DNA of 24,000 nucleotides, from NCBI GenBank assembly GCA_963818475.1, contig CAWFSF010000005.1:555873-579872 (forward strand). Reading direction: 5' to 3'. This document shows, one piece after another, positions 13,892 to 18,300 of this stretch. The DNA is from Nitrospirota bacterium. Its GTDB lineage: Bacteria; Nitrospirota; UBA9217. The notes below the pieces were generated by a model, which worked only from the letters and a program-made list of their open reading frames with translations, was not told the DNA's origin and did no database searches. The position numbers were made by a program, and so were the translations under genes. Position 1 is the first letter of the stretch; the number at the start of each line of letters is the position of its first letter.

Positions 13892-13922
13892 AAAAAAAGG
13901 GGAGCGGCATGACCCGCTCCCC
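13892..13922 (-). terminator. Rho-independent terminator after the propeller lipoprotein gene
   Basis: The minus strand reads GGGGAGCGG-gtcatg-CCGCTCCCC (9-bp GC-rich stem) followed by TTTTTTT. It lies 27 nt downstream of the stop at 13949. Confidence 0.8.
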
Positions 13923-13948
13923 CGATGATATATTATTACACCCTGTTC

Positions 13949-16204
13949 TTACAGCTTCGCGTCAGTAACGATGTCCGATTTCTTTATTGCATCGATGTAC
14001 GCGGGATAGCTCATGGTCATCGGAACAAAGTAATCGGCTGTCTGGCCCGACGCGCAGTAAACGATTTGCGCCTGCGCAGCTGCTGTAGTTGCGATCGTCG
14101 CATCATGGACCACAGTAGCATTAAACGTTGCAGTCGACACGTCGACATACCCGAGGTGGGTACGGCCGTTTAGTGCACCGCCTGACCCATCAGCCACAAT
14201 CGCCGAATAGTATACCCTCTTCGCTTTGGCATCATAGCGCACATCATGGAAATTGTGCGTTTTGTTAAGTGCGCCTATTTCTGAGGAGAGCTGGACCTTG
14301 TCTTTCGCCGTCACAACGATTTTGTTATCCGCGGTAGTGCCGGCCGGATTGATCGTCACTGCAACCCTGACAATATGTCCTCCGCCCGTTGACGCCATGT
14401 AGATGGTACCACTATAGGTGCCGTCATGGTTGTCCTTAATCGGGCCGTCAATACCGCAGGTCACATGGGCCACGGTGTCATTGTGGCATCCGCCGCAGGT
14501 GTTCACGGGATTGCCGACTGCGCCGTATTGTCCGGTCTGAATGTTATAGAGCTGGAGACCGCTGGTGTTTTGTGTTTCAGTTCCGTTTTTGTACCGCAGC
14601 GCAAGGAGGGCGTACTTGCCGTCCGGCGTGGGCATAACATCGTGGTTCTCGCCGCCGATCGCGGTGTCGTTGCTCAATTCCGACAGGTCCGTAGCGTCGA
14701 GCACAACCAGACGGTCCGCGCCAGCTTGAAGAATCTTGCTGCCGTCGGGCGTAAAGGTCGAACGGAAGGCGACTGCTGCCGAGGTCGTCGGCGATGTAGT
14801 CATCACACTTGAGGTGTTTACCGTGCCTGCAAGAATATCGCTCATTTTAAGCAAATAACCCGTGAAGTTGCCTGTCATATTATCGCCGACGCCGCCGCCA
14901 CCCGCTGTGGTCTCGTTCACCGCAACGTAGAGCTGTTTCGGCGTACTGGTCAGGGCCGCTCCGGTCTTCACCGTGTTTTTCCTGATAACATCGATGTACG
15001 CGGGATAGCTCATGGTCATCGGAATATAGTAATCAGCTGTCTGGGCCGACGCGCAGTAAACGATCTGCGCCTGCGCAGCTGCCGTGGTTTCGATCGTTGC
15101 ATCATGGACTGCATTGGAGGCTCCAATGTCGACATACCCGAGGTGGGTCTGGCCATTAACTGCTCCGCCGGCAGAATCGGCAACGATCGCCGAATAGTAA
15201 ACTCTATTCGTAGCAGCATCATAACGCACATCATGGAAATTATGTGTTTTGTTGGTTGCGCCGAATGTTGAAGTGAGATTGATCTTGGTTATCGCCCCCA
15301 CAGCGATTTCGTTACCAGTGTTTGTCGGGTCAATTGTCACGGGGACCCTGACAATGTGTCCTCCGCTCGTTGACGCCATGTAGATCGTACCGGTATAGGG
15401 ACCGGTACCGGTCAAGGGTCCGTCAATACCGCAGGTCACATGGCCCACGGTGGCGCTATTATGGCAATCGCCGCAGGTGTTCACGGGATTGCCGACTGCG
15501 CCGTACTGTCCGGTCTGAATGTTATAGAGCTGGAGACCGCTGGTGTTAAATGCTTCTGCTCCGTTTTTGTACCGCAGCGCAAGGAGGGCGTACTTGCCGT
15601 CCGGCGTGGGCATAACATCGTGGTTCTCGCCGCCGATGTTGGTGTCGGTGCTCAATGTCGCAAGGGTAGAACCATCGAGCACAACCAGACGGTCCGCGCC
15701 TGCCTGGAGGATCTTGCTGCCGTCCGGCGTAAAGGTCGAACGGAAGGCGACCGCTGCCGGGGTTGCCGGCGATGTTGCGATCACACTTGATGTGCTTACC
15801 GTGCCGGCGAGGACATCGCTCATATCGAGCAAATAGCCCGTGAAGTTGCCTGTCATATTATCGCCGACGCCACCGCCGCCCGCTGTTGTTTCGTTCACTG
15901 CAACGTAGAGTTTTGATTTGTCAGGGCTGTTGACGCCGTGAGCGTAAATATAGTCGGGGCTGGTTCTGAAGTCTGAGATCATGATCCTTTTGTAATCCGC
16001 CGGGCTGTTCACGCCGTGGGCGTAGATATAGTCTGGGTTGGTTCTGAAATCCGAGATCATGGTCCTTTTGAATAAAGTTGCTGCGCCGGGTCCCGGATCT
16101 GAACCGCCACCGCCACCACCGCCACAGTTTACGAGCACGGCGAGAGCCAGCATGAGGGACAGGCAAACAAGCACTGTCTTCTTCACAAAACTGTTGAGCT
16201 TCAT
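13949..16204 (-). CDS. Large lipoprotein with two tandem beta-propeller-like (lactonase/YncE-like) modules, each carrying a CXXCH motif
   Basis: The signal peptide and lipobox are LAVLVN-C, followed by a Gly7 linker. Two modules of about 326 aa (aa 99-424 and 425-751) are roughly 75-80% identical. Each contains LYVAVNETTAGGGGVGD, PDGSKILQAGADRLVVLD, PDGKYALLAL, NTCG(D/G)CHN (15461-15475 and 14483-14497) and THNFHDVRYD. A GGGGAGG Shine-Dalgarno precedes ATG 16204. Confidence 0.85.
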   Translation of the reverse strand: MKLNSFVKKTVLVCLSLMLALAVLVNCGGGGGGGSDPGPGAATLFKRTMISDFRTNPDYIYAHGVNSPADYKRIMISDFRTSPDYIYAHGVNSPDKSKLYVAVNETTAGGGGVGDNMTGNFTGYLLDMSDVLAGTVSTSSVIATSPATPAAVAFRSTFTPDGSKILQAGADRLVVLDGSTLATLSTDTNIGGENHDVMPTPDGKYALLALRYKNGAEAFNTSGLQLYNIQTGQYGAVGNPVNTCGDCHNSATVGHVTCGIDGPLTGTGPYTGTIYMASTSGGHIVRVPVTIDPTNTGNEIAVGAITKINLTSTFGATNKTHNFHDVRYDAATNRVYYSAIVADSAGGAVNGQTHLGYVDIGASNAVHDATIETTAAAQAQIVYCASAQTADYYIPMTMSYPAYIDVIRKNTVKTGAALTSTPKQLYVAVNETTAGGGGVGDNMTGNFTGYLLKMSDILAGTVNTSSVMTTSPTTSAAVAFRSTFTPDGSKILQAGADRLVVLDATDLSELSNDTAIGGENHDVMPTPDGKYALLALRYKNGTETQNTSGLQLYNIQTGQYGAVGNPVNTCGGCHNDTVAHVTCGIDGPIKDNHDGTYSGTIYMASTGGGHIVRVAVTINPAGTTADNKIVVTAKDKVQLSSEIGALNKTHNFHDVRYDAKAKRVYYSAIVADGSGGALNGRTHLGYVDVSTATFNATVVHDATIATTAAAQAQIVYCASGQTADYFVPMTMSYPAYIDAIKKSDIVTDAKL
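13952..15910. repeat. Intragenic tandem duplication, two units of about 978 bp
   Basis: Unit 1 is 14933-15910 and unit 2 is 13952-14932. Long stretches are identical at the DNA level, for example GCCGCAGGTGTTCACGGGATTGCCGACTGCGCCGTA.TGTCCGGTCTGAATGTTATAGAGCTGGAGACCGCTGGTGTT in both units. The shadow ORFs 14426..14812 and 15440..15790 are near-copies of each other. Confidence 0.85.
15917..16066. repeat. Two tandem 75-bp repeats encoding a 25-aa unit at the lipoprotein N-terminus
   Basis: They encode KRTMISDFRTNPDYIYAHGVNSPADY and KRIMISDFRTSPDYIYAHGVNSPDKS back to back. Confidence 0.85.
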
Positions 16205-16421
16205 GTTCTTTTTCCTCCCCTTTTTTAGTTATTGTTTCGACACAATCAAAAAATCCATTTCGCAATCTACGGCAATGGCGGCCTTTACACCTCCTTAAAT
16301 CGATTTTAAACAGGGTGTCACGATCTTTTTTTGTGATCGCATAGTGTCCCTGTGCGATAAGTGAGAGGGATACCTCATGCGGATAACGACATTTTTCCGC
16401 CACGCTTTCAATCATTTTCGA

Positions 16422-16868: not shown

Positions 16869-16899
16869 AAGAGTTAGTCTCCTTATCTTGAGTATGCTG

Positions 16900-18075
16900 T
16901 TAGAACCGTGCCTGTATCTGCAGGATCGCTGTTTTGAAATCCTTACTTATCGCTTCCTTGCTGAAGTCATTTATCGAGTATTCCAGCGTCACTCTCAAGT
17001 CCTGCCCCTTTATGTAATAATTGGCGCCGACGGCCTCCCAGATGATGTTCTGGTCCTGAATACCCTGCAATTCGGCAAATGACCAGTCCTCATAACGCCC
17101 GAACAACTGGACTTTCCCGACCATATAACCGACTTTCCAATAGGTCCCGTTCTTTTCGCCGTCAATTCCCTGGGCGTCCGCCACCCCGCGCAGTCCCGCT
17201 TCGTTGAAATCGGCCTTCAAGTATGCCCCCGAGACGGTGAACGTCCCCATGTCGGTCGGCTGTTCGAAGAAAAGATCGTAAGAAAAGGCAGTGTAGTCTT
17301 CTGCGCCGGTGGTGTTTGACGAATAGACCGCGTCGGCCTCGGTCTCGTAGGATGCGCCGAGGGTGAATACTTTTTTCTTTCCGAGATAGGAGCCTTTATA
17401 TCCGAATCCTGACTCGGGATCGAAAAACGAGTAGTGAATGCGGCCCGCATATCGATAGCCCGCGTCGTCCGGTTTGTTCTCGCCGAAATTGTTCCCTTCC
17501 ATGGCGGCCAGGCGGTACTGAATCTTGTCGCTTGCGAGATTGCCCCAAACAACAATGCCTTTGTCACGGGTCCTTTTATCCTCGAAGGGTCCGTTAATGA
17601 AAATGGACCTGTCCGCGGAGAGGGGGTCGAAGCAGCCCTCCTGCACCTCGCGGGTGATGATGTGTTTCGTTTTTCCTGCCCGGATCTGGAAGGCATTGGA
17701 GACGGTCACTGCTATGTAGCCATCCAGAAATTTCAGATCGTAATCGCTTGGTTCATTTGACACGGAAAGATCGCCTATCCGCTGTCCGCCGTTGTATTCA
17801 TACTGCAGAGCGAATGCGAAGGTCTCGTTCGCCGCCCCCAGGAGACTCAGGCGGTTTCTTCTTAAATAGACGTCCGTGGTGCTGTCTTCGCCTGCCGGGC
17901 CTGAGCCTATATCACGCCAGGCGCCGCGAAGCTGGACTTGATAATCGATATTCAGGAACCCGCCATCGCCGAACTCGGCAACGGTTAATGCCTGTGCTCG
18001 CTGGCTTCCCAAACCAAGACAGAGCAGACCTGCAATGAAAAAAACTCGAACCCTCGTACTTATGCAATGCATCAT
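16900..18075 (-). CDS. Outer-membrane porin (phosphate-selective OprO/OprP-like family)
   Basis: The signal peptide ends ..SQRAQA-LT. The sequence has the alternating amphipathic pattern of a beta-barrel, with many aromatic girdle residues. The C-terminal signature is AILQIQARF, ending in Phe. Confidence 0.75.
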   Translation of the reverse strand: MMHCISTRVRVFFIAGLLCLGLGSQRAQALTVAEFGDGGFLNIDYQVQLRGAWRDIGSGPAGEDSTTDVYLRRNRLSLLGAANETFAFALQYEYNGGQRIGDLSVSNEPSDYDLKFLDGYIAVTVSNAFQIRAGKTKHIITREVQEGCFDPLSADRSIFINGPFEDKRTRDKGIVVWGNLASDKIQYRLAAMEGNNFGENKPDDAGYRYAGRIHYSFFDPESGFGYKGSYLGKKKVFTLGASYETEADAVYSSNTTGAEDYTAFSYDLFFEQPTDMGTFTVSGAYLKADFNEAGLRGVADAQGIDGEKNGTYWKVGYMVGKVQLFGRYEDWSFAELQGIQDQNIIWEAVGANYYIKGQDLRVTLEYSINDFSKEAISKDFKTAILQIQARF

Positions 18076-18270
18076 TCCCCCCCTTAGTTTCCCATTTTTC
18101 CAAATGGGATGATGGCAGTCTCATCATCGTTAAAGCTTCAATTCAAGATTACCGTGAACAACGTGAACAATAGGACCAAAGTATTTTCCCACGCTGTTTT
18201 TCAATATCTGCACAGCTGGATCTATAAGCGAGTGCGGTAAATGATCGAACCTAAAGTATTAAGATGGGGC

Positions 18271-18300
18271 ATAATAACGAAACCCGCCGAGCCCTGTCAA
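18271..18300 (-). promoter_or_regulatory. Putative sigma70 promoter of the porin operon
   Basis: The minus strand reads TTGACA (18295-18300), an 18-nt spacer, then TATTAT (18271-18276). This implies a leader of about 190 nt. Confidence 0.45.

What the first reader, a model, noticed from the sequence alone, without database searches (positions are those of the whole stretch)
13892..18300. Porin + Ig-like lipoprotein + CXXCH propeller lipoprotein cluster: a possible outer-membrane redox or uptake module
- **Seen:** three co-oriented genes encode an OprO/P-like barrel, a small lipoprotein 31 nt downstream, and the large CXXCH lipoprotein after a 217-nt gap.
- **Seen:** a putative promoter lies at 18271-18300 and a strong terminator at 13892-13922.
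- **Established:** outer-membrane electron conduits of the porin-cytochrome type (MtrCAB, Geobacter Pcc) combine a barrel with lipoprotein and periplasmic haemoproteins.
- **Inference:** this cluster has the same topology logic, but with a propeller haemoprotein in place of a multihaem cytochrome. It could be an undescribed envelope redox, metal-handling or substrate-capture system.
Basis: inference. Interest (0 to 1): 0.68.

Follow-up and report, generated by a model that had tools for sequence, protein, structure and literature searches.

The report
ExtI porin with novel metallo-propeller lipoprotein
The three genes are real and travel together in several bacterial phyla: a known type of small-anion outer-membrane pore (ExtI) sits next to a previously undescribed Cys/His-rich propeller protein that looks like a new periplasmic metal enzyme (probably copper-dependent) rather than part of an electron-conducting porin-cytochrome wire.

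Summary

- **Porin:** it meets NCBI's ExtI model (406 bits, cut-off 150). It models as a 16-strand OprP-like barrel, too narrow to sheath a protein.
- **CXXCH protein ("PROP"):** a tandem double, about six-bladed beta-propeller from a rare family with no Pfam, NCBIfam or PDB relative. About 130 representatives were found in 1.8 billion proteins.
- **Synteny:** porin, then small or Ig-like lipoprotein, then PROP recurs in about 17 loci from Nitrospirota, Desulfobacterota and Anaeromyxobacter.
- **Deeper partner:** PROP is followed by an FtsX/MacB-type permease in 61 of 72 loci, and an ABC ATPase lies close by in 50. The window's copy lies just past the terminator (12557-13813).
- **Copper link:** two unrelated copper-chaperone families (PCuAC, YtkA/CtaK-like) adjoin PROP in 24 relatives.
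- **Motif:** the invariant residues form a Cys4/His5 set. One branch has CX6CH instead of CXXCH.
- **Cytochromes:** no multihaem cytochrome lies near any PROP.

Best reading: a variant of the Geobacter ExtH/I/KL sulfur/selenium module, with a new periplasm-facing metallo-propeller as the catalytic partner. The metal and substrate are inferred. The electron-conduit reading is not supported.

The parts
18271..18300 (-). Sigma-70-like promoter candidate, TTGACA-18-TATTAT, about 195 nt upstream of the porin start
   Evidence: 11 of 12 matches, the best in 12300-18700. Sequence read. This is a consensus match only; function is not shown.
16900..18075 (-). ExtI-family outer-membrane porin (391 aa, signal peptide ...AQA|L). 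Models as a 16-strand OprP-like barrel.
   Evidence: NCBIfam NF040900 porin_ExtI equivalog, 405.6 bits against cut-off 150, full length. Pfam Porin_O_P 49 bits. AF2 model pLDDT 88.9 with 16 long strands. Foldseek best hits are OprP 2o4v (TM 0.67), OprO and OmpC/F. 450 homologues at E<=1e-10, some named ExtI by NCBI. 11 invariant Arg/Lys and one invariant Cys (C148) among 49 homologues.
16422..16868 (-). Small outer-membrane lipoprotein (148 aa, lipobox VIQG|C), 31 nt after the porin gene. It occupies the position held by a Big_2 Ig-like lipoprotein in most relatives.
   Evidence: ORF. Only three homologues: P0268 (90%), P0269 and L076 (about 50%), the two with known context (L076; P0269 on the contig of porin P0031) lying next to an ExtI-like porin. 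No Pfam, NCBIfam or PDB hit. hhalign against the Big_2 partners matches only the signal/lipobox region.
16205..16421 (-). 217-nt gap carrying a conserved leader box AAGGAGGTG (16288-16296), 91 nt upstream of the PROP start codon. PROP's own Shine-Dalgarno GGGGAGG lies nearer the start.
   Evidence: The box lies 82-107 nt upstream of PROP in 17 of 18 window-like loci. AGGAGG lies at -69 to -98 in about 20 of 58 distant loci. Background is 0.12 per kb. No ORF follows it. No consensus structure. No Rfam hit.
13949..16204 (-). PROP: 751-aa lipoprotein made of two tandem, about six-bladed beta-propeller units. Unit 1 is residues 96-421 (nt 14942-15919). Unit 2 is residues 422-751 (nt 13952-14941). 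Each unit has CXXCH plus further invariant Cys/His residues. Two copies of the strand FRTxPDYIYAHGVNSP sit at the N-terminus (nt 15924-16070).
   Evidence: The halves are 76-79% identical. DNA repeats have a 975-999 nt period. The family has 24 word-search hits, 131 representatives and 65 GTDB loci. AF2 model of single-unit homologue P0011: pLDDT 84, pTM 0.83, 25 strands. Foldseek finds only generic propellers. Invariant residues map to H89/R155/H195/D196/C244/C247/H248/C258/H283/H324/D325/C384 in unit 1. In unit 2 they map to R481/H521/D522/C570/C573/H574/C583/H610/H653/D654/C717.
13892..13923 (-). Intrinsic terminator: 10-bp G+C-rich stem, 6-nt loop, T7
   Evidence: strongest in the region.: -22.5 kcal/mol, z = -3.8, none of 200 shuffles as stable.
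12557..13813 (-). FtsX/MacB-type (type VII ABC) permease. The likely true start is Met17 at 13765. It is the most conserved neighbour of PROP genes. No ABC ATPase gene lies in the window.
   Evidence: Pfam FtsX 49 bits. Below the cut-offs of the MacB, LolCE, DevC and ADOP models. An FtsX gene lies directly downstream of PROP in 61 of 72 loci, and an ABC ATPase cluster lies in the PROP neighbourhood in 50. PROP and FtsX pairwise distances correlate at r = 0.93, Mantel p = 0.001. The start is inferred from homologue N-termini.

Best explanation
**Shown**
- The cluster is a conserved envelope module of four genes.
  - An ExtI-family, 16-strand anion-type porin.
  - A small outer-membrane lipoprotein.
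  - A tandem double beta-propeller lipoprotein of an uncharacterised family, called PROP here.
  - An FtsX/MacB-type permease just past the terminator. This is PROP's most constant partner across phyla.

**Inferred**
- The module is a variant of the Geobacter ExtH-ExtI-ExtJ-ExtKL arrangement.
  - There, the porin takes up selenite and holds the rhodanese lipoprotein ExtH at the outer membrane.
  - A periplasmic enzyme (ExtKL, also called MccSep) reduces polysulfide.
- Here the porin would admit a small sulfur- or selenium-type anion. PROP would be tethered to the inner face of the outer membrane beside it and act as the redox or transfer enzyme.
- PROP's active site is a Cys4/His4-5/Arg cluster.
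  - These residues begin the innermost strands of successive blades.
  - They therefore ring the propeller axis, with the CXXCH loop feeding into the closing strand.
- PROP is Sec-exported and loaded in the periplasm, most likely with copper. A haem c on the CXXCH, giving a MccA-like haem-copper site, cannot be excluded.
- The FtsX permease works with an ABC ATPase in relatives. By mechanotransmission it would serve PROP's maturation or operation, in the way NosDFY and NosL serve the propeller copper centre of N2O reductase.
- The module is not a porin-cytochrome electron wire.
For: **Porin identity and fold**
- ExtI equivalog score.
- OprP-like 16-strand model.

**ExtI biology from papers**
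- extI deletion impairs selenite/tellurite reduction (PMC5877670).
- ExtI mediates selenite uptake and is needed for outer-membrane localisation of ExtH (BBRC 2019, as summarised in PMC8981825).
- ExtKL is the periplasmic polysulfide reductase essential for S0 respiration, and the route of polysulfide entry is still open (PMC13510729).

**Synteny**
- Porin, then lipoprotein, then PROP in 7 of 7 metagenome contexts.
- The same order in GTDB loci of Nitrospirota and Anaeromyxobacter, and in locus L076. In Desulfobacterales L025 the porin is nearby but divergent.
- Porin-to-lipoprotein gaps are 18-36 nt.
- In L007 an ExtH equivalog (287 bits, cut-off 200) directly follows PROP.
- Other ExtI porins pair with ExtH or with an 8-haem cytochrome.

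**ABC transporter partner**
- PROP is followed by FtsX in 61 of 72 loci; an ABC ATPase cluster is in the neighbourhood of 50.
- The two genes have co-diverged, r = 0.93.

**Copper link**
- PCuAC (Pfam 76 bits) lies directly upstream of PROP in 18 loci.
- A YtkA-like protein lies after PROP in 6 loci.
- YtkA/CtaK is a PCuAC-analogous copper chaperone (PMC9145763).

**Active-site residues**
- 64-65 of 65 sequences keep H64, H105, C168, H229, H344, C391, C394, H395 and C405.
- H105, C168, H229, R293, H344 and C405 fall at the starts of the first strands of blades in the AF2 model.
- The same His/Cys pattern (read by eye, not aligned) is kept in very distant members. One of these has an inserted cytochrome c domain.

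**Export**
- No twin-arginine motif occurs in the PROP signal peptides read.
Against: - No experiment exists for any family member. Metal, substrate, topology and the role of FtsX are all inferred.
- The window has no copper-chaperone gene, no ABC ATPase gene and no ExtH.
- A strong terminator separates PROP from the FtsX gene.
- CXXCH is the canonical haem c motif and is nearly invariant, so haem could be the sole cofactor.
- Copper chaperones flank only 24 of 72 loci, and they could serve another client.
- The central position of the invariant residues is deduced from the strand order.
- Adjacent genes co-diverge whether or not they interact, so one search is weak evidence.
- The sulfur/selenium substrate rests on the ExtI/ExtH association only.
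Confidence: 0.5

Rival explanations
1. First reader's reading. The module is an outer-membrane electron conduit of the porin-cytochrome type. The barrel sheaths or docks the propeller haemoprotein, which passes electrons to or from an extracellular substrate.
For: - ExtI was first listed as the barrel of a putative conduit cluster, extHIJKL (PMC6148476).
- CXXCH is nearly invariant.
- An ExtI-type porin sits next to an octahaem cytochrome in L077.
- A distant PROP relative carries a cytochrome c domain.
Against: - The barrel models with 16 strands. Its neighbours are OprP/OmpF, and no MtrB-like hit is in the top 50.
- No multihaem or periplasmic cytochrome ORF lies in the window or in any PROP neighbourhood.
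- One CXXCH per roughly 330 residues cannot form a haem wire.
- Most PROP genes have no porin and sit beside an inner-membrane ABC transporter.
- ExtI is reported to act as a selenite uptake porin.
Confidence: 0.07
2. PROP is a haem-c-only propeller enzyme. A c-type haem on the CXXCH sits over the propeller axis, as haem d1 does in cytochrome cd1. The invariant His/Arg residues bind an oxyanion such as selenite, sulfite or nitrite. The copper-chaperone genes serve other clients.
For: - Canonical CXXCH in 59 of 65 family members, with CH kept in 64 of 65.
- Sec-type signals are compatible with periplasmic haem attachment.
- Invariant Arg293 and His residues lie on inner strands.
- The cd1 NirS propeller is among the fold hits.
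- ccm genes lie near one distant member.
Against: - One branch has C-x6-CH. To my knowledge this spacing is not known to be matured by standard haem lyases.
- Two further invariant Cys residues are unexplained.
- No cytochrome fold or Pfam domain is detected.
- Two unrelated copper-chaperone families adjoin PROP in separate branches.
- The member near ccm genes has its own true cytochrome c domain.
Confidence: 0.2
3. The module is a copper handling system, for uptake, sequestration or detoxification. PROP would be a periplasmic copper-binding protein fed by PCuAC/YtkA-type chaperones. The FtsX/ABC transporter would move copper or a copper ligand, and the porin would be the outer-membrane passage.
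For: - Copper-chaperone adjacency in 24 loci.
- Cys/His-rich invariant set.
- From my own knowledge: FtsX-type permeases take part in a copper-dependent metal uptake system, the Campylobacter P19/Ftr1 cluster.
Against: - An invariant Arg/Asp/His array on a propeller axis looks catalytic rather than like a storage site.
- A cytochrome c domain is fused in a distant member.
- The links to ExtH/ExtI point to sulfur/selenium chemistry.
- No membrane-fusion or TolC-type partner for export appears in any locus.
Confidence: 0.13
4. PROP is a metal-free thiol relay. The four invariant Cys residues include a redox-active CXXC. Together with the invariant Cys in the porin's inner loop, they would carry persulfide or selenotrisulfide intermediates from the pore into the periplasm, as rhodanese ExtH may do.
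For: - Invariant Cys in the porin loop.
- Four invariant Cys residues in PROP.
- ExtH, a catalytic-Cys sulfurtransferase, lies in the same clusters.
- The variable C-x2/x6-C spacing is tolerated.
Against: - It does not explain five invariant His residues, the copper chaperones or the fused cytochrome domain.
- It gives the ABC transporter no role.
Confidence: 0.08

Closest known systems
Geobacter sulfurreducens ExtH-ExtI-ExtJ-ExtKL (GSU2940-2936): NCBI's 'selenite/tellurite reduction operon', now linked to S0/polysulfide respiration
   Same: - The porin meets the ExtI equivalog model.
- The gene logic matches: porin, then a small protein, then a periplasmic redox enzyme.
- Lipoprotein partners are encoded beside the porin.
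- One relative (L007) also carries an ExtH equivalog in the same cluster.
   Different: - The window has no ExtH, no ExtKL/MccSep multihaem selenoprotein and no ExtM-S cytochromes or bc-type proteins.
- The catalytic partner is an unrelated beta-propeller.
- An FtsX-type permease is attached.
- The small protein is a 148-aa lipoprotein, not shown to be related to the 104-aa ExtJ. No ExtJ sequence was available to compare.
OprP/OprO phosphate- and polyphosphate-selective porins of Pseudomonas aeruginosa (PDB 2o4v, 4rjw)
   Same: - Best structural neighbours of the modelled barrel (TM 0.64-0.67).
- 16 strands with an inward-folded loop.
- Pfam Porin_O_P hit.
- Many conserved Arg/Lys residues.
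   Different: - About 13% identity.
- Jahan et al. report that ExtI keeps few OprP phosphate-binding residues and does not respond to phosphate starvation (PMC5877670).
- An invariant Cys lies in the inner loop.
Porin-cytochrome conduits (MtrCAB of Shewanella; OmaB-OmbB-OmcB of Geobacter)
   Same: A barrel gene is clustered with lipoprotein gene(s) carrying CXXCH.
   Different: - The barrel is small and of the general-porin type.
- There is no periplasmic multihaem cytochrome.
- There is one CXXCH per propeller unit.
- The family mostly occurs without any barrel.
Nitrous-oxide reductase NosZ with NosL and NosDFY (analogy only)
   Same: - A Sec/periplasm-matured beta-propeller with a metal site on the propeller axis.
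- A dedicated periplasmic copper chaperone gene.
- An ABC transporter encoded alongside.
   Different: - No sequence or specific fold match.
- No cupredoxin CuA domain.
- Cys as well as His ligands.
- The transporter is of the FtsX/MacB type, not the ABC-2 NosY type.
- About six blades by strand count, rather than seven.
MccA octahaem haem c-copper sulfite reductase (Hermann et al. 2015, cited in PMC13510729). Analogy for a mixed haem/Cu(Cys)2 site.
   Same: - A haem c motif plus additional conserved Cys residues.
- From my own knowledge: a copper-chaperone gene in the cluster, an oxyanion substrate, and a non-standard Cys spacing tolerated in a haem motif.
   Different: - An entirely different fold, a multihaem helical protein.
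- MccA needs a dedicated haem lyase, and none is seen here.

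Membership tests
ExtI porin family (NCBIfam NF040900, equivalog) | Full-length match above the curated cut-off (150 bits) | tested here: met
   405.6 bits over profile positions 16-403 of 403. PROP-linked porins in relatives score 327-510 bits.
ExtI porin family | Outer-membrane beta-barrel with an N-terminal signal peptide | tested here: met
   Signal ...GSQRAQA|L. AF2 model with 16 strands, pLDDT 88.9. OprP/OmpF neighbours.
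ExtI porin family | Encoded within extHIJKLMNOPQS, with rhodanese ExtH, ExtJ and multihaem cytochromes | tested here: not met
   No rhodanese and no multihaem ORF in the 24-kb window. ExtH is present in relatives L007 and L078 only.
ExtI porin family | Mediates selenite uptake and localises a partner lipoprotein | not testable with these tools
   Known only for G. sulfurreducens (PMC5877670; PMC8981825).
Porin-cytochrome conduit (Mtr/Pcc type) | Large barrel (about 20-26 strands) able to enclose a cytochrome | tested here: not met
   16 long strands. Best matches are 16-strand porins.
Porin-cytochrome conduit (Mtr/Pcc type) | Periplasmic multihaem cytochrome and outer multihaem lipoprotein in the cluster | tested here: not met
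   The only ORFs with CXXCH in the mapped window-like neighbourhoods (window plus 10 loci) are PROP itself, one motif per unit.
c-type cytochrome | CXXCH haem-attachment motif | tested here: met
   Two motifs in the window protein. One branch of the family has C-x6-CH instead.
c-type cytochrome | Recognisable cytochrome c domain or fold | tested here: not met
   Only a sub-threshold Cytochrome_C7 hit (14.8 bits, cut-off 24.8). The model is all-beta and the motif lies in a loop. No cytochrome among the fold hits except the propeller domain of cd1.
c-type cytochrome | Covalently bound haem | not testable with these tools
   Needs haem staining or mass spectrometry of the protein.
Beta-propeller fold | Repeated four-stranded antiparallel blades closing into a ring | tested here: met
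   AF2 model of homologue P0011: pTM 0.83, 25 strands, read as six blades plus a closing strand. 535 Foldseek hits at E<=1e-3, all propellers in the top 50. The circular permutation at the closure point fits a ring.
Big_2 (PF02368) Ig-like lipoprotein | Pfam Big_2 domain | tested here: not met
   The window protein has no hit at E<=1. Profile-profile comparison aligns only the signal/lipobox. Met by the positional counterparts in 15 relatives. The fold of the window protein was not modelled.
Type VII (MacB/FtsX) ABC transporter | FtsX permease domain with a large periplasmic loop | tested here: met
   Pfam FtsX 49 bits at residues 287-399. MacB_PCD seen in relatives.
Type VII (MacB/FtsX) ABC transporter | Cognate ABC ATPase encoded alongside | tested here: not met
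   None in the window. An ABC ATPase cluster is present in the PROP neighbourhood in 50 of 72 related loci.
LolCDE / MacB / DevC / ADOP named subfamilies | Score above the NCBIfam cut-off | tested here: not met
   23-44 bits against cut-offs of 290-966.
Nitrous-oxide reductase-like copper propeller | Sequence or specific structural similarity to the NosZ propeller | tested here: not met
   No PDB sequence hit. No NosZ among the top 50 fold hits. Kept as an analogy only.

The most novel reading that the evidence does not exclude
PROP would found a new class of periplasmic beta-propeller oxidoreductases. Its site would be a copper-thiolate, or haem c plus copper, centre on the propeller axis. 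A copper chaperone and a type VII (FtsX/MacB) ABC transporter would assemble or drive it. It would act on sulfur or selenium species in anaerobes of several phyla. In the window's branch it would be docked under an ExtI pore as an alternative to the multihaem polysulfide reductase.
Probability: 0.3. Interest if true: 0.8.

Novelty: new variant of a known kind. Interest (0 to 1): 0.6.

Why it matters
- ExtI-type porins are widespread, with hundreds of homologues. They have just been tied to elemental-sulfur respiration through their neighbour ExtKL/MccSep. How sulfur species cross the outer membrane, and what else works beside these pores, is explicitly open.
- This cluster shows that the pore is a reusable platform. 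Its partner enzyme can be swapped.
- It also exposes a compact, conserved protein family with no name and a striking invariant Cys/His site. That family has a copper-chaperone link and a dedicated mechanotransmitting ABC transporter.
- If PROP is a new copper or haem-copper enzyme, it would add a catalyst to anaerobic sulfur/selenium cycling in Nitrospirota, Desulfobacterota and Myxococcota.
- It would also give type VII ABC transporters a new kind of periplasmic client.
- All of this can be tested directly by expressing one roughly 400-residue protein.

Tried and rejected
- **Family searches on PROP.** Pfam, NCBIfam, PDB sequence and PDB profile searches gave nothing above threshold.
- **Foldseek on the PROP model.** Only generic propellers, TM about 0.4-0.55. 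No specific relative was found, so no family assignment was made.
- **Small lipoprotein.** No PDB hit. Only three homologues by the last protein search. hhalign to Big_2 was negative beyond the lipobox. 'Ig-like' is therefore left unproven for the window copy.
- **Upstream ORF behind the AAGGAGGTG box.** Rejected. No start codon sits at Shine-Dalgarno spacing and no conserved peptide follows.
- **Structured leader RNA.** RNAalifold found no pairs. Rfam gave only a sub-threshold hit on the terminator.
- **Tat export or an Fe-S/Mo cofactor.** Rejected, because no twin-arginine motif occurs in any signal peptide read.
- **A dedicated Lol-like lipoprotein extractor as the role of FtsX.** Unlikely. 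Most PROPs paired with FtsX lack a lipobox (52 of 65), and LolCE scores are far below cut-off.
- **Chance adjacency.** Rejected on synteny.
- **Taxonomic origin of the window.** The window protein is not on record in the contig index. The nearest named relatives are Desulfobacterales and Desulfurivibrionaceae MAGs at about 42% identity. The organism stays unknown, probably Desulfobacterota.
- **Literature search for ExtI in sulfur disproportionators.** It returned false hits on the word 'extinction'.
- **Literature search for PCuAC with FtsX and propeller.** Nothing relevant.
- **Full-length two-propeller model.** Not run, because the prediction quota went to the single-unit homologue and the porin.

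Full report
**1. Observation**

On the minus strand the window encodes three ORFs:
- a 391-aa ORF at 16900-18075;
- a 148-aa ORF at 16422-16868;
- a 751-aa ORF at 13949-16204.

The gaps are exactly 31 and 217 nt. The two smaller products after the porin have lipoprotein-type N-termini (VIQG|C and LVN|C; the Asn at position -1 is atypical). The large protein has CGDCH at residues 244-248 and CGGCH at residues 570-574.

The TTGACA-18-TATTAT site at 18300-18271 is the best sigma-70-like match in the region, at 11 of 12. The hairpin at 13923-13898 plus T7 is the strongest terminator-like site: -22.5 kcal/mol, z = -3.8.

**2. The porin**

Pfam gives a modest Porin_O_P hit. NCBIfam places the protein in NF040900, 'selenite/tellurite reduction operon porin ExtI', at 406 bits against a cut-off of 150 over the whole profile. 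A protein search found 450 homologues at E<=1e-10, several named ExtI by NCBI.

An AlphaFold2 model built on 49 homologues (pLDDT 88.9) shows 16 long strands and a non-beta segment at 138-169. Its best PDB neighbours are OprP (2o4v, TM 0.67), OprO and the OmpC/OmpF class. No MtrB-type barrel is in the top 50. Eleven Arg/Lys residues and a single Cys (C148, motif EGCFDPLSxDRS) are invariant among the 49 sequences.

From the literature:
- ExtI is the porin of the G. sulfurreducens extHIJKL(MNOPQS) cluster, and its deletion impairs selenite and tellurite reduction (PMC5877670).
- It mediates selenite uptake and is needed for outer-membrane localisation of the rhodanese lipoprotein ExtH (Jahan et al. 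2019, as summarised in PMC8981825).
- Its ExtKL product is now shown to be a periplasmic multihaem selenoprotein that reduces polysulfide and is essential for S0 respiration. The route of polysulfide entry is left open (PMC13510729).

**3. The large lipoprotein (PROP)**

It has no Pfam, NCBIfam or PDB relative. It is a tandem duplication:
- residues 96-421 and 422-751 are 76-79% identical;
- the DNA repeat period is 975-999 nt, and identity varies from 75% to 90% along the unit.

The family is rare:
- 24 proteins by word-indexed search of 5.8 billion;
- 131 representatives at E<=1e-3 among 1.84 billion by full HMMER profile search;
- 65 loci in 185,579 GTDB species genomes. Most are Nitrospirota, including Thermodesulfovibrionales, Ca. 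Sulfobium and the Mn-oxidising enrichment MAG MnB_6. Others are Desulfobulbaceae, Desulfurivibrionaceae, Desulfobacterales, Anaeromyxobacter, Rokubacteria and one betaproteobacterium.

Most members are single units of 360-450 residues. A single-unit homologue (P0011) models well, with pLDDT 84 and pTM 0.83. It is an all-beta protein of 25 strands. I read this as six four-stranded blades, with the C-terminal strand closing the first blade. Foldseek returns only generic propellers: WD40, lactonase, YncE and the d1 domain of NirS, at TM 0.4-0.55.

The family is circularly permuted at exactly that closure. Most members run B-A. The window protein, P0005, P0006 and L076 run A-B.

Across 65 sequences from all branches, 64 or 65 keep H64, H105, C168, H229, H344, C391, C394, H395 and C405; D106 (63), D345 (64) and R293 (64) are nearly as constant (P0011 numbering). 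H105, C168, H229, R293, H344 and C405 each lie at the start of the first strand of a blade (blades II, III, IV, V, VI and I). The CXXCH loop runs directly into the C405 strand.

The first strand of a blade is the innermost one. I therefore infer that these residues ring the propeller axis on one face and form a central cofactor site.

Both units of the window protein keep the set. The one exception is the H229 strand of unit 2, discussed in section 7.

**4. Haem or something else?**

For haem:
- CXXCH is canonical and nearly invariant.
- The Sec-type signals fit periplasmic maturation.

Against haem as the whole story:
- One well-supported branch (P0023, P0024; loci L009, L010, L030, L047, L068) has C-x6-CH.
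- Two more Cys and four more His residues are equally invariant.
- No cytochrome fold is present.

Gene neighbourhoods point to copper. A PCuAC copper chaperone (Pfam 76 bits, cut-off 29) lies directly upstream and co-oriented in 18 loci. A YtkA-like protein follows PROP in six Nitrospirota loci. YtkA/CtaK is described as an unrelated functional analogue of PCuAC (PMC9145763). Two unrelated chaperone families recruited independently is the strongest functional clue available.

A distant, apparently archaeal member (P0251) keeps the His/Cys pattern (read by eye) and carries an inserted monohaem cytochrome c domain. This suggests that the propeller site receives electrons.

My estimate:
- copper, with or without a haem c in a MccA-like haem/Cu(Cys)2 arrangement: about 0.5;
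- haem only: about 0.2;
- copper handling without catalysis: about 0.13;
- metal-free thiol relay: about 0.08.

**5. Synteny**

All seven metagenomic contexts of close homologues show an ExtI-like porin, then a Big_2 lipoprotein 18-36 nt later, then PROP. The same order holds in GTDB loci of Nitrospirota and Anaeromyxobacter, and in L076. In L076 the middle gene is a 144-aa homologue (about 50% identity) of the window's small lipoprotein. In the Desulfobacterales locus L025 an ExtI-type porin is nearby but divergently oriented, with no Big_2 gene. All the porins tested pass the ExtI cut-off, at 327-510 bits.

In L007 an ExtH equivalog (287 bits, cut-off 200) with an N-terminal Big_5 domain follows PROP.

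ExtI-type porins without PROP pair with other partners:
- an ExtH-like rhodanese and a 927-aa Ig-repeat protein in L078;
- an 86-aa lipoprotein and an 8-haem cytochrome in L077.

The pore is thus a platform with exchangeable partners. This matches the observation by Jimenez Otero et al. that the exposed lipoprotein of ext clusters is often replaced.

**6. The deeper partner**

The larger, more distant part of the family consists of proteins of about 370 residues. They have a signal peptide but no lipobox (52 of 65 sequences) and no porin nearby.

Across all 72 loci, PROP is followed by an FtsX-type permease in 61, and an ABC ATPase cluster lies in the neighbourhood of 50. The window has this permease at 12557-13813, with a probable true start at 13765. 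It lies directly after the terminator. An ATPase gene is absent from the window.

The permease fits no named subfamily: its MacB, LolCE, DevC and ADOP scores are far below cut-off. PROP and FtsX distances co-vary at r = 0.93, Mantel p = 0.001. This shows inheritance as a unit, not interaction.

Because the partner is an inner-membrane machine, and because most PROPs are not lipoproteins, I infer that PROP faces the periplasm in the window's branch too. There it would be tethered to the outer membrane under the pore. No multihaem cytochrome ORF occurs in any neighbourhood examined.

**7. Architecture detail**

The strand carrying H229 (FRTxPDYIYAHGVNSP) is missing between the two units of the window protein. 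It is present twice at the N-terminus, at residues 52-68 and 78-94, as a 78-nt tandem repeat with 88% identity at 15924-16070. P0003 is 53% identical and has the same x-x-A-B-A-B order. Other double-unit proteins are x-A-B-x-A-B.

The arrangement is therefore maintained. It suggests that the first N-terminal strand completes the second propeller. This was not tested.

In the double-unit proteins compared, the halves of one protein are generally more alike (64-86%) than the halves of different proteins. The exception is the close pair L038/P0148, where the halves are orthologous; P0145 (64% between its halves) is borderline. This points to concerted evolution or repeated duplication.

**8. The 217-nt gap**

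The gap carries AAGGAGGTG at 16296-16288, a full complement of the 16S 3' end, 91 nt before the start codon. PROP also has its own proximal Shine-Dalgarno sequence.
- The box lies 82-107 nt upstream of PROP in 17 of 18 window-like loci, whatever gene precedes it.
- AGGAGG lies at -69 to -98 in about 20 of 58 distant loci, against a background of 0.12 per kb.
- No ORF follows it, no consensus structure emerges and Rfam has no match.

PROP thus brings its own conserved leader. What the box does is unexplained.

**9. Verdict**

It is an ExtI-type pore module in which an unnamed metallo-propeller and its FtsX-type permease replace the cytochrome or rhodanese partners known from Geobacter.

The porin-cytochrome conduit mechanism is not supported. 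A redox or uptake role for a small sulfur/selenium anion is plausible but inferred. The haem assignment is open, and copper is the better-supported cofactor.

Relative to known systems this is a new variant of a known kind. The PROP family itself may prove to be a new enzyme class.

Noticed in passing
window 16288-16296 (minus strand), inside the gap 16205-16421; the same position in L001, L003, L005, L008-L011, L025, L030, L038, L047, L068, L072, L076 and about 20 distant loci: A perfect anti-Shine-Dalgarno complement, AAGGAGGTG(A), is conserved 70-107 nt upstream of PROP start codons across phyla. No ORF follows it, and the gene has a second, proximal SD. In several loci a CCGGCAGTGCCGG-like box lies 20-25 nt downstream. 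It may be a standby or enhancer site or a regulator site.
   Followed up: partly
window 15924-16070 and the junction near 14941: The strand that carries an invariant His (FRTxPDYIYAHGVNSP) is duplicated in tandem at the N-terminus (78-nt repeat, 88% identity). It is absent between the two propeller units. P0003 shares this x-x-A-B-A-B order. This suggests the N-terminal strand is donated to the second propeller.
   Followed up: partly
window 14480-14779 versus 15458-15757, and the rest of 13949-16204: Identity between the two propeller-coding units is mosaic, 90% over 300 nt but 75-80% elsewhere. In the double-unit homologues compared, the halves of one protein are generally more alike than the halves of different proteins. 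This points to gene conversion or repeated duplication.
   Followed up: partly
PROP family (alignment A1; P0005, P0006 and L076 versus P0008-P0024): The family is circularly permuted at the propeller closure point. Most members run B-A, and a minority, including the window protein, run A-B.
   Followed up: partly
window 17632-17634 (porin residue C148, motif EGCFDPLSxDRS): A single Cys is invariant in 49 ExtI-type porins. It lies in the non-beta segment at 138-169, which looks like the inward-folded constriction loop. This is unusual for a porin and suggestive for thiol-reactive substrates such as selenite or polysulfide.
   Followed up: no
L005, L008-L010, L025, L030, L047, L055, L068, L070, L072, L073, L075, L076 (upstream of the porin or PROP; divergent except co-oriented in L025): A trio of genes recurs next to the module in Nitrospirota and Desulfobacterota: a PMT_2 (ArnT-like glycosyltransferase), an amine-oxidase/phytoene-desaturase-like protein and a B12-binding radical SAM protein. 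A GT2 gene sometimes joins them. The trio is absent from the window. It may be a lipid or glycan modification set travelling with the module.
   Followed up: no
L009, L010, L030, L047, L068, L075: In Nitrospirota the module is a longer operon. The order is porin, Big_2, PROP (with CX6CH), a YtkA-like protein, a 350-aa secreted protein, a 230-aa membrane protein, FtsX, an ABC ATPase and a second Big_2 lipoprotein. The two middle proteins have no Pfam or NCBIfam hit.
   Followed up: partly
L079 (Logan SRR11308168), gene 6001-7440: A very distant PROP relative (P0251) has a monohaem cytochrome c domain inserted after the first blade. It sits in an archaeal-looking context (MCH, HerA) within 1-6 kb of ccmF, ccmE, ccmC and ccmB.
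   Followed up: partly
window 13852-13882 and 13765: A TTGACT-19-TATACT sequence lies between the terminator and the FtsX gene. Homologue N-termini indicate that the FtsX protein starts at Met17 (13765), not at 13813. The permease may therefore have its own promoter.
   Followed up: partly
L012, L013, L023, L026, L028 and about 14 other distant loci, mostly a few hundred bases upstream of PROP and co-oriented: A small cytoplasmic protein of about 90 aa (motif KKIAVLVRDRxxEALRMAVGLTLADD) recurs near PROP in 16-19 loci. It resembles the DsrE/TusB type by eye, but no Pfam or NCBIfam hit was obtained.
   Followed up: partly
window 6179-7024 and 7226-8014; window 19897-20646 and 20484-21095: Two genes appear split. 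An M3 oligopeptidase is split into an N-terminal ORF and a catalytic ORF. A PHP-family protein is split into two overlapping ORFs in different frames. These could be frameshifts, pseudogenes or assembly errors.
   Followed up: no
L042 5829-8278 and 9890-12305: One Nitrospirae MAG carries two PROP-FtsX pairs side by side. The first has a very divergent PROP-like ORF (E = 2e-11), paired with an FtsX closer to the window's type (E = 3e-87).
   Followed up: no
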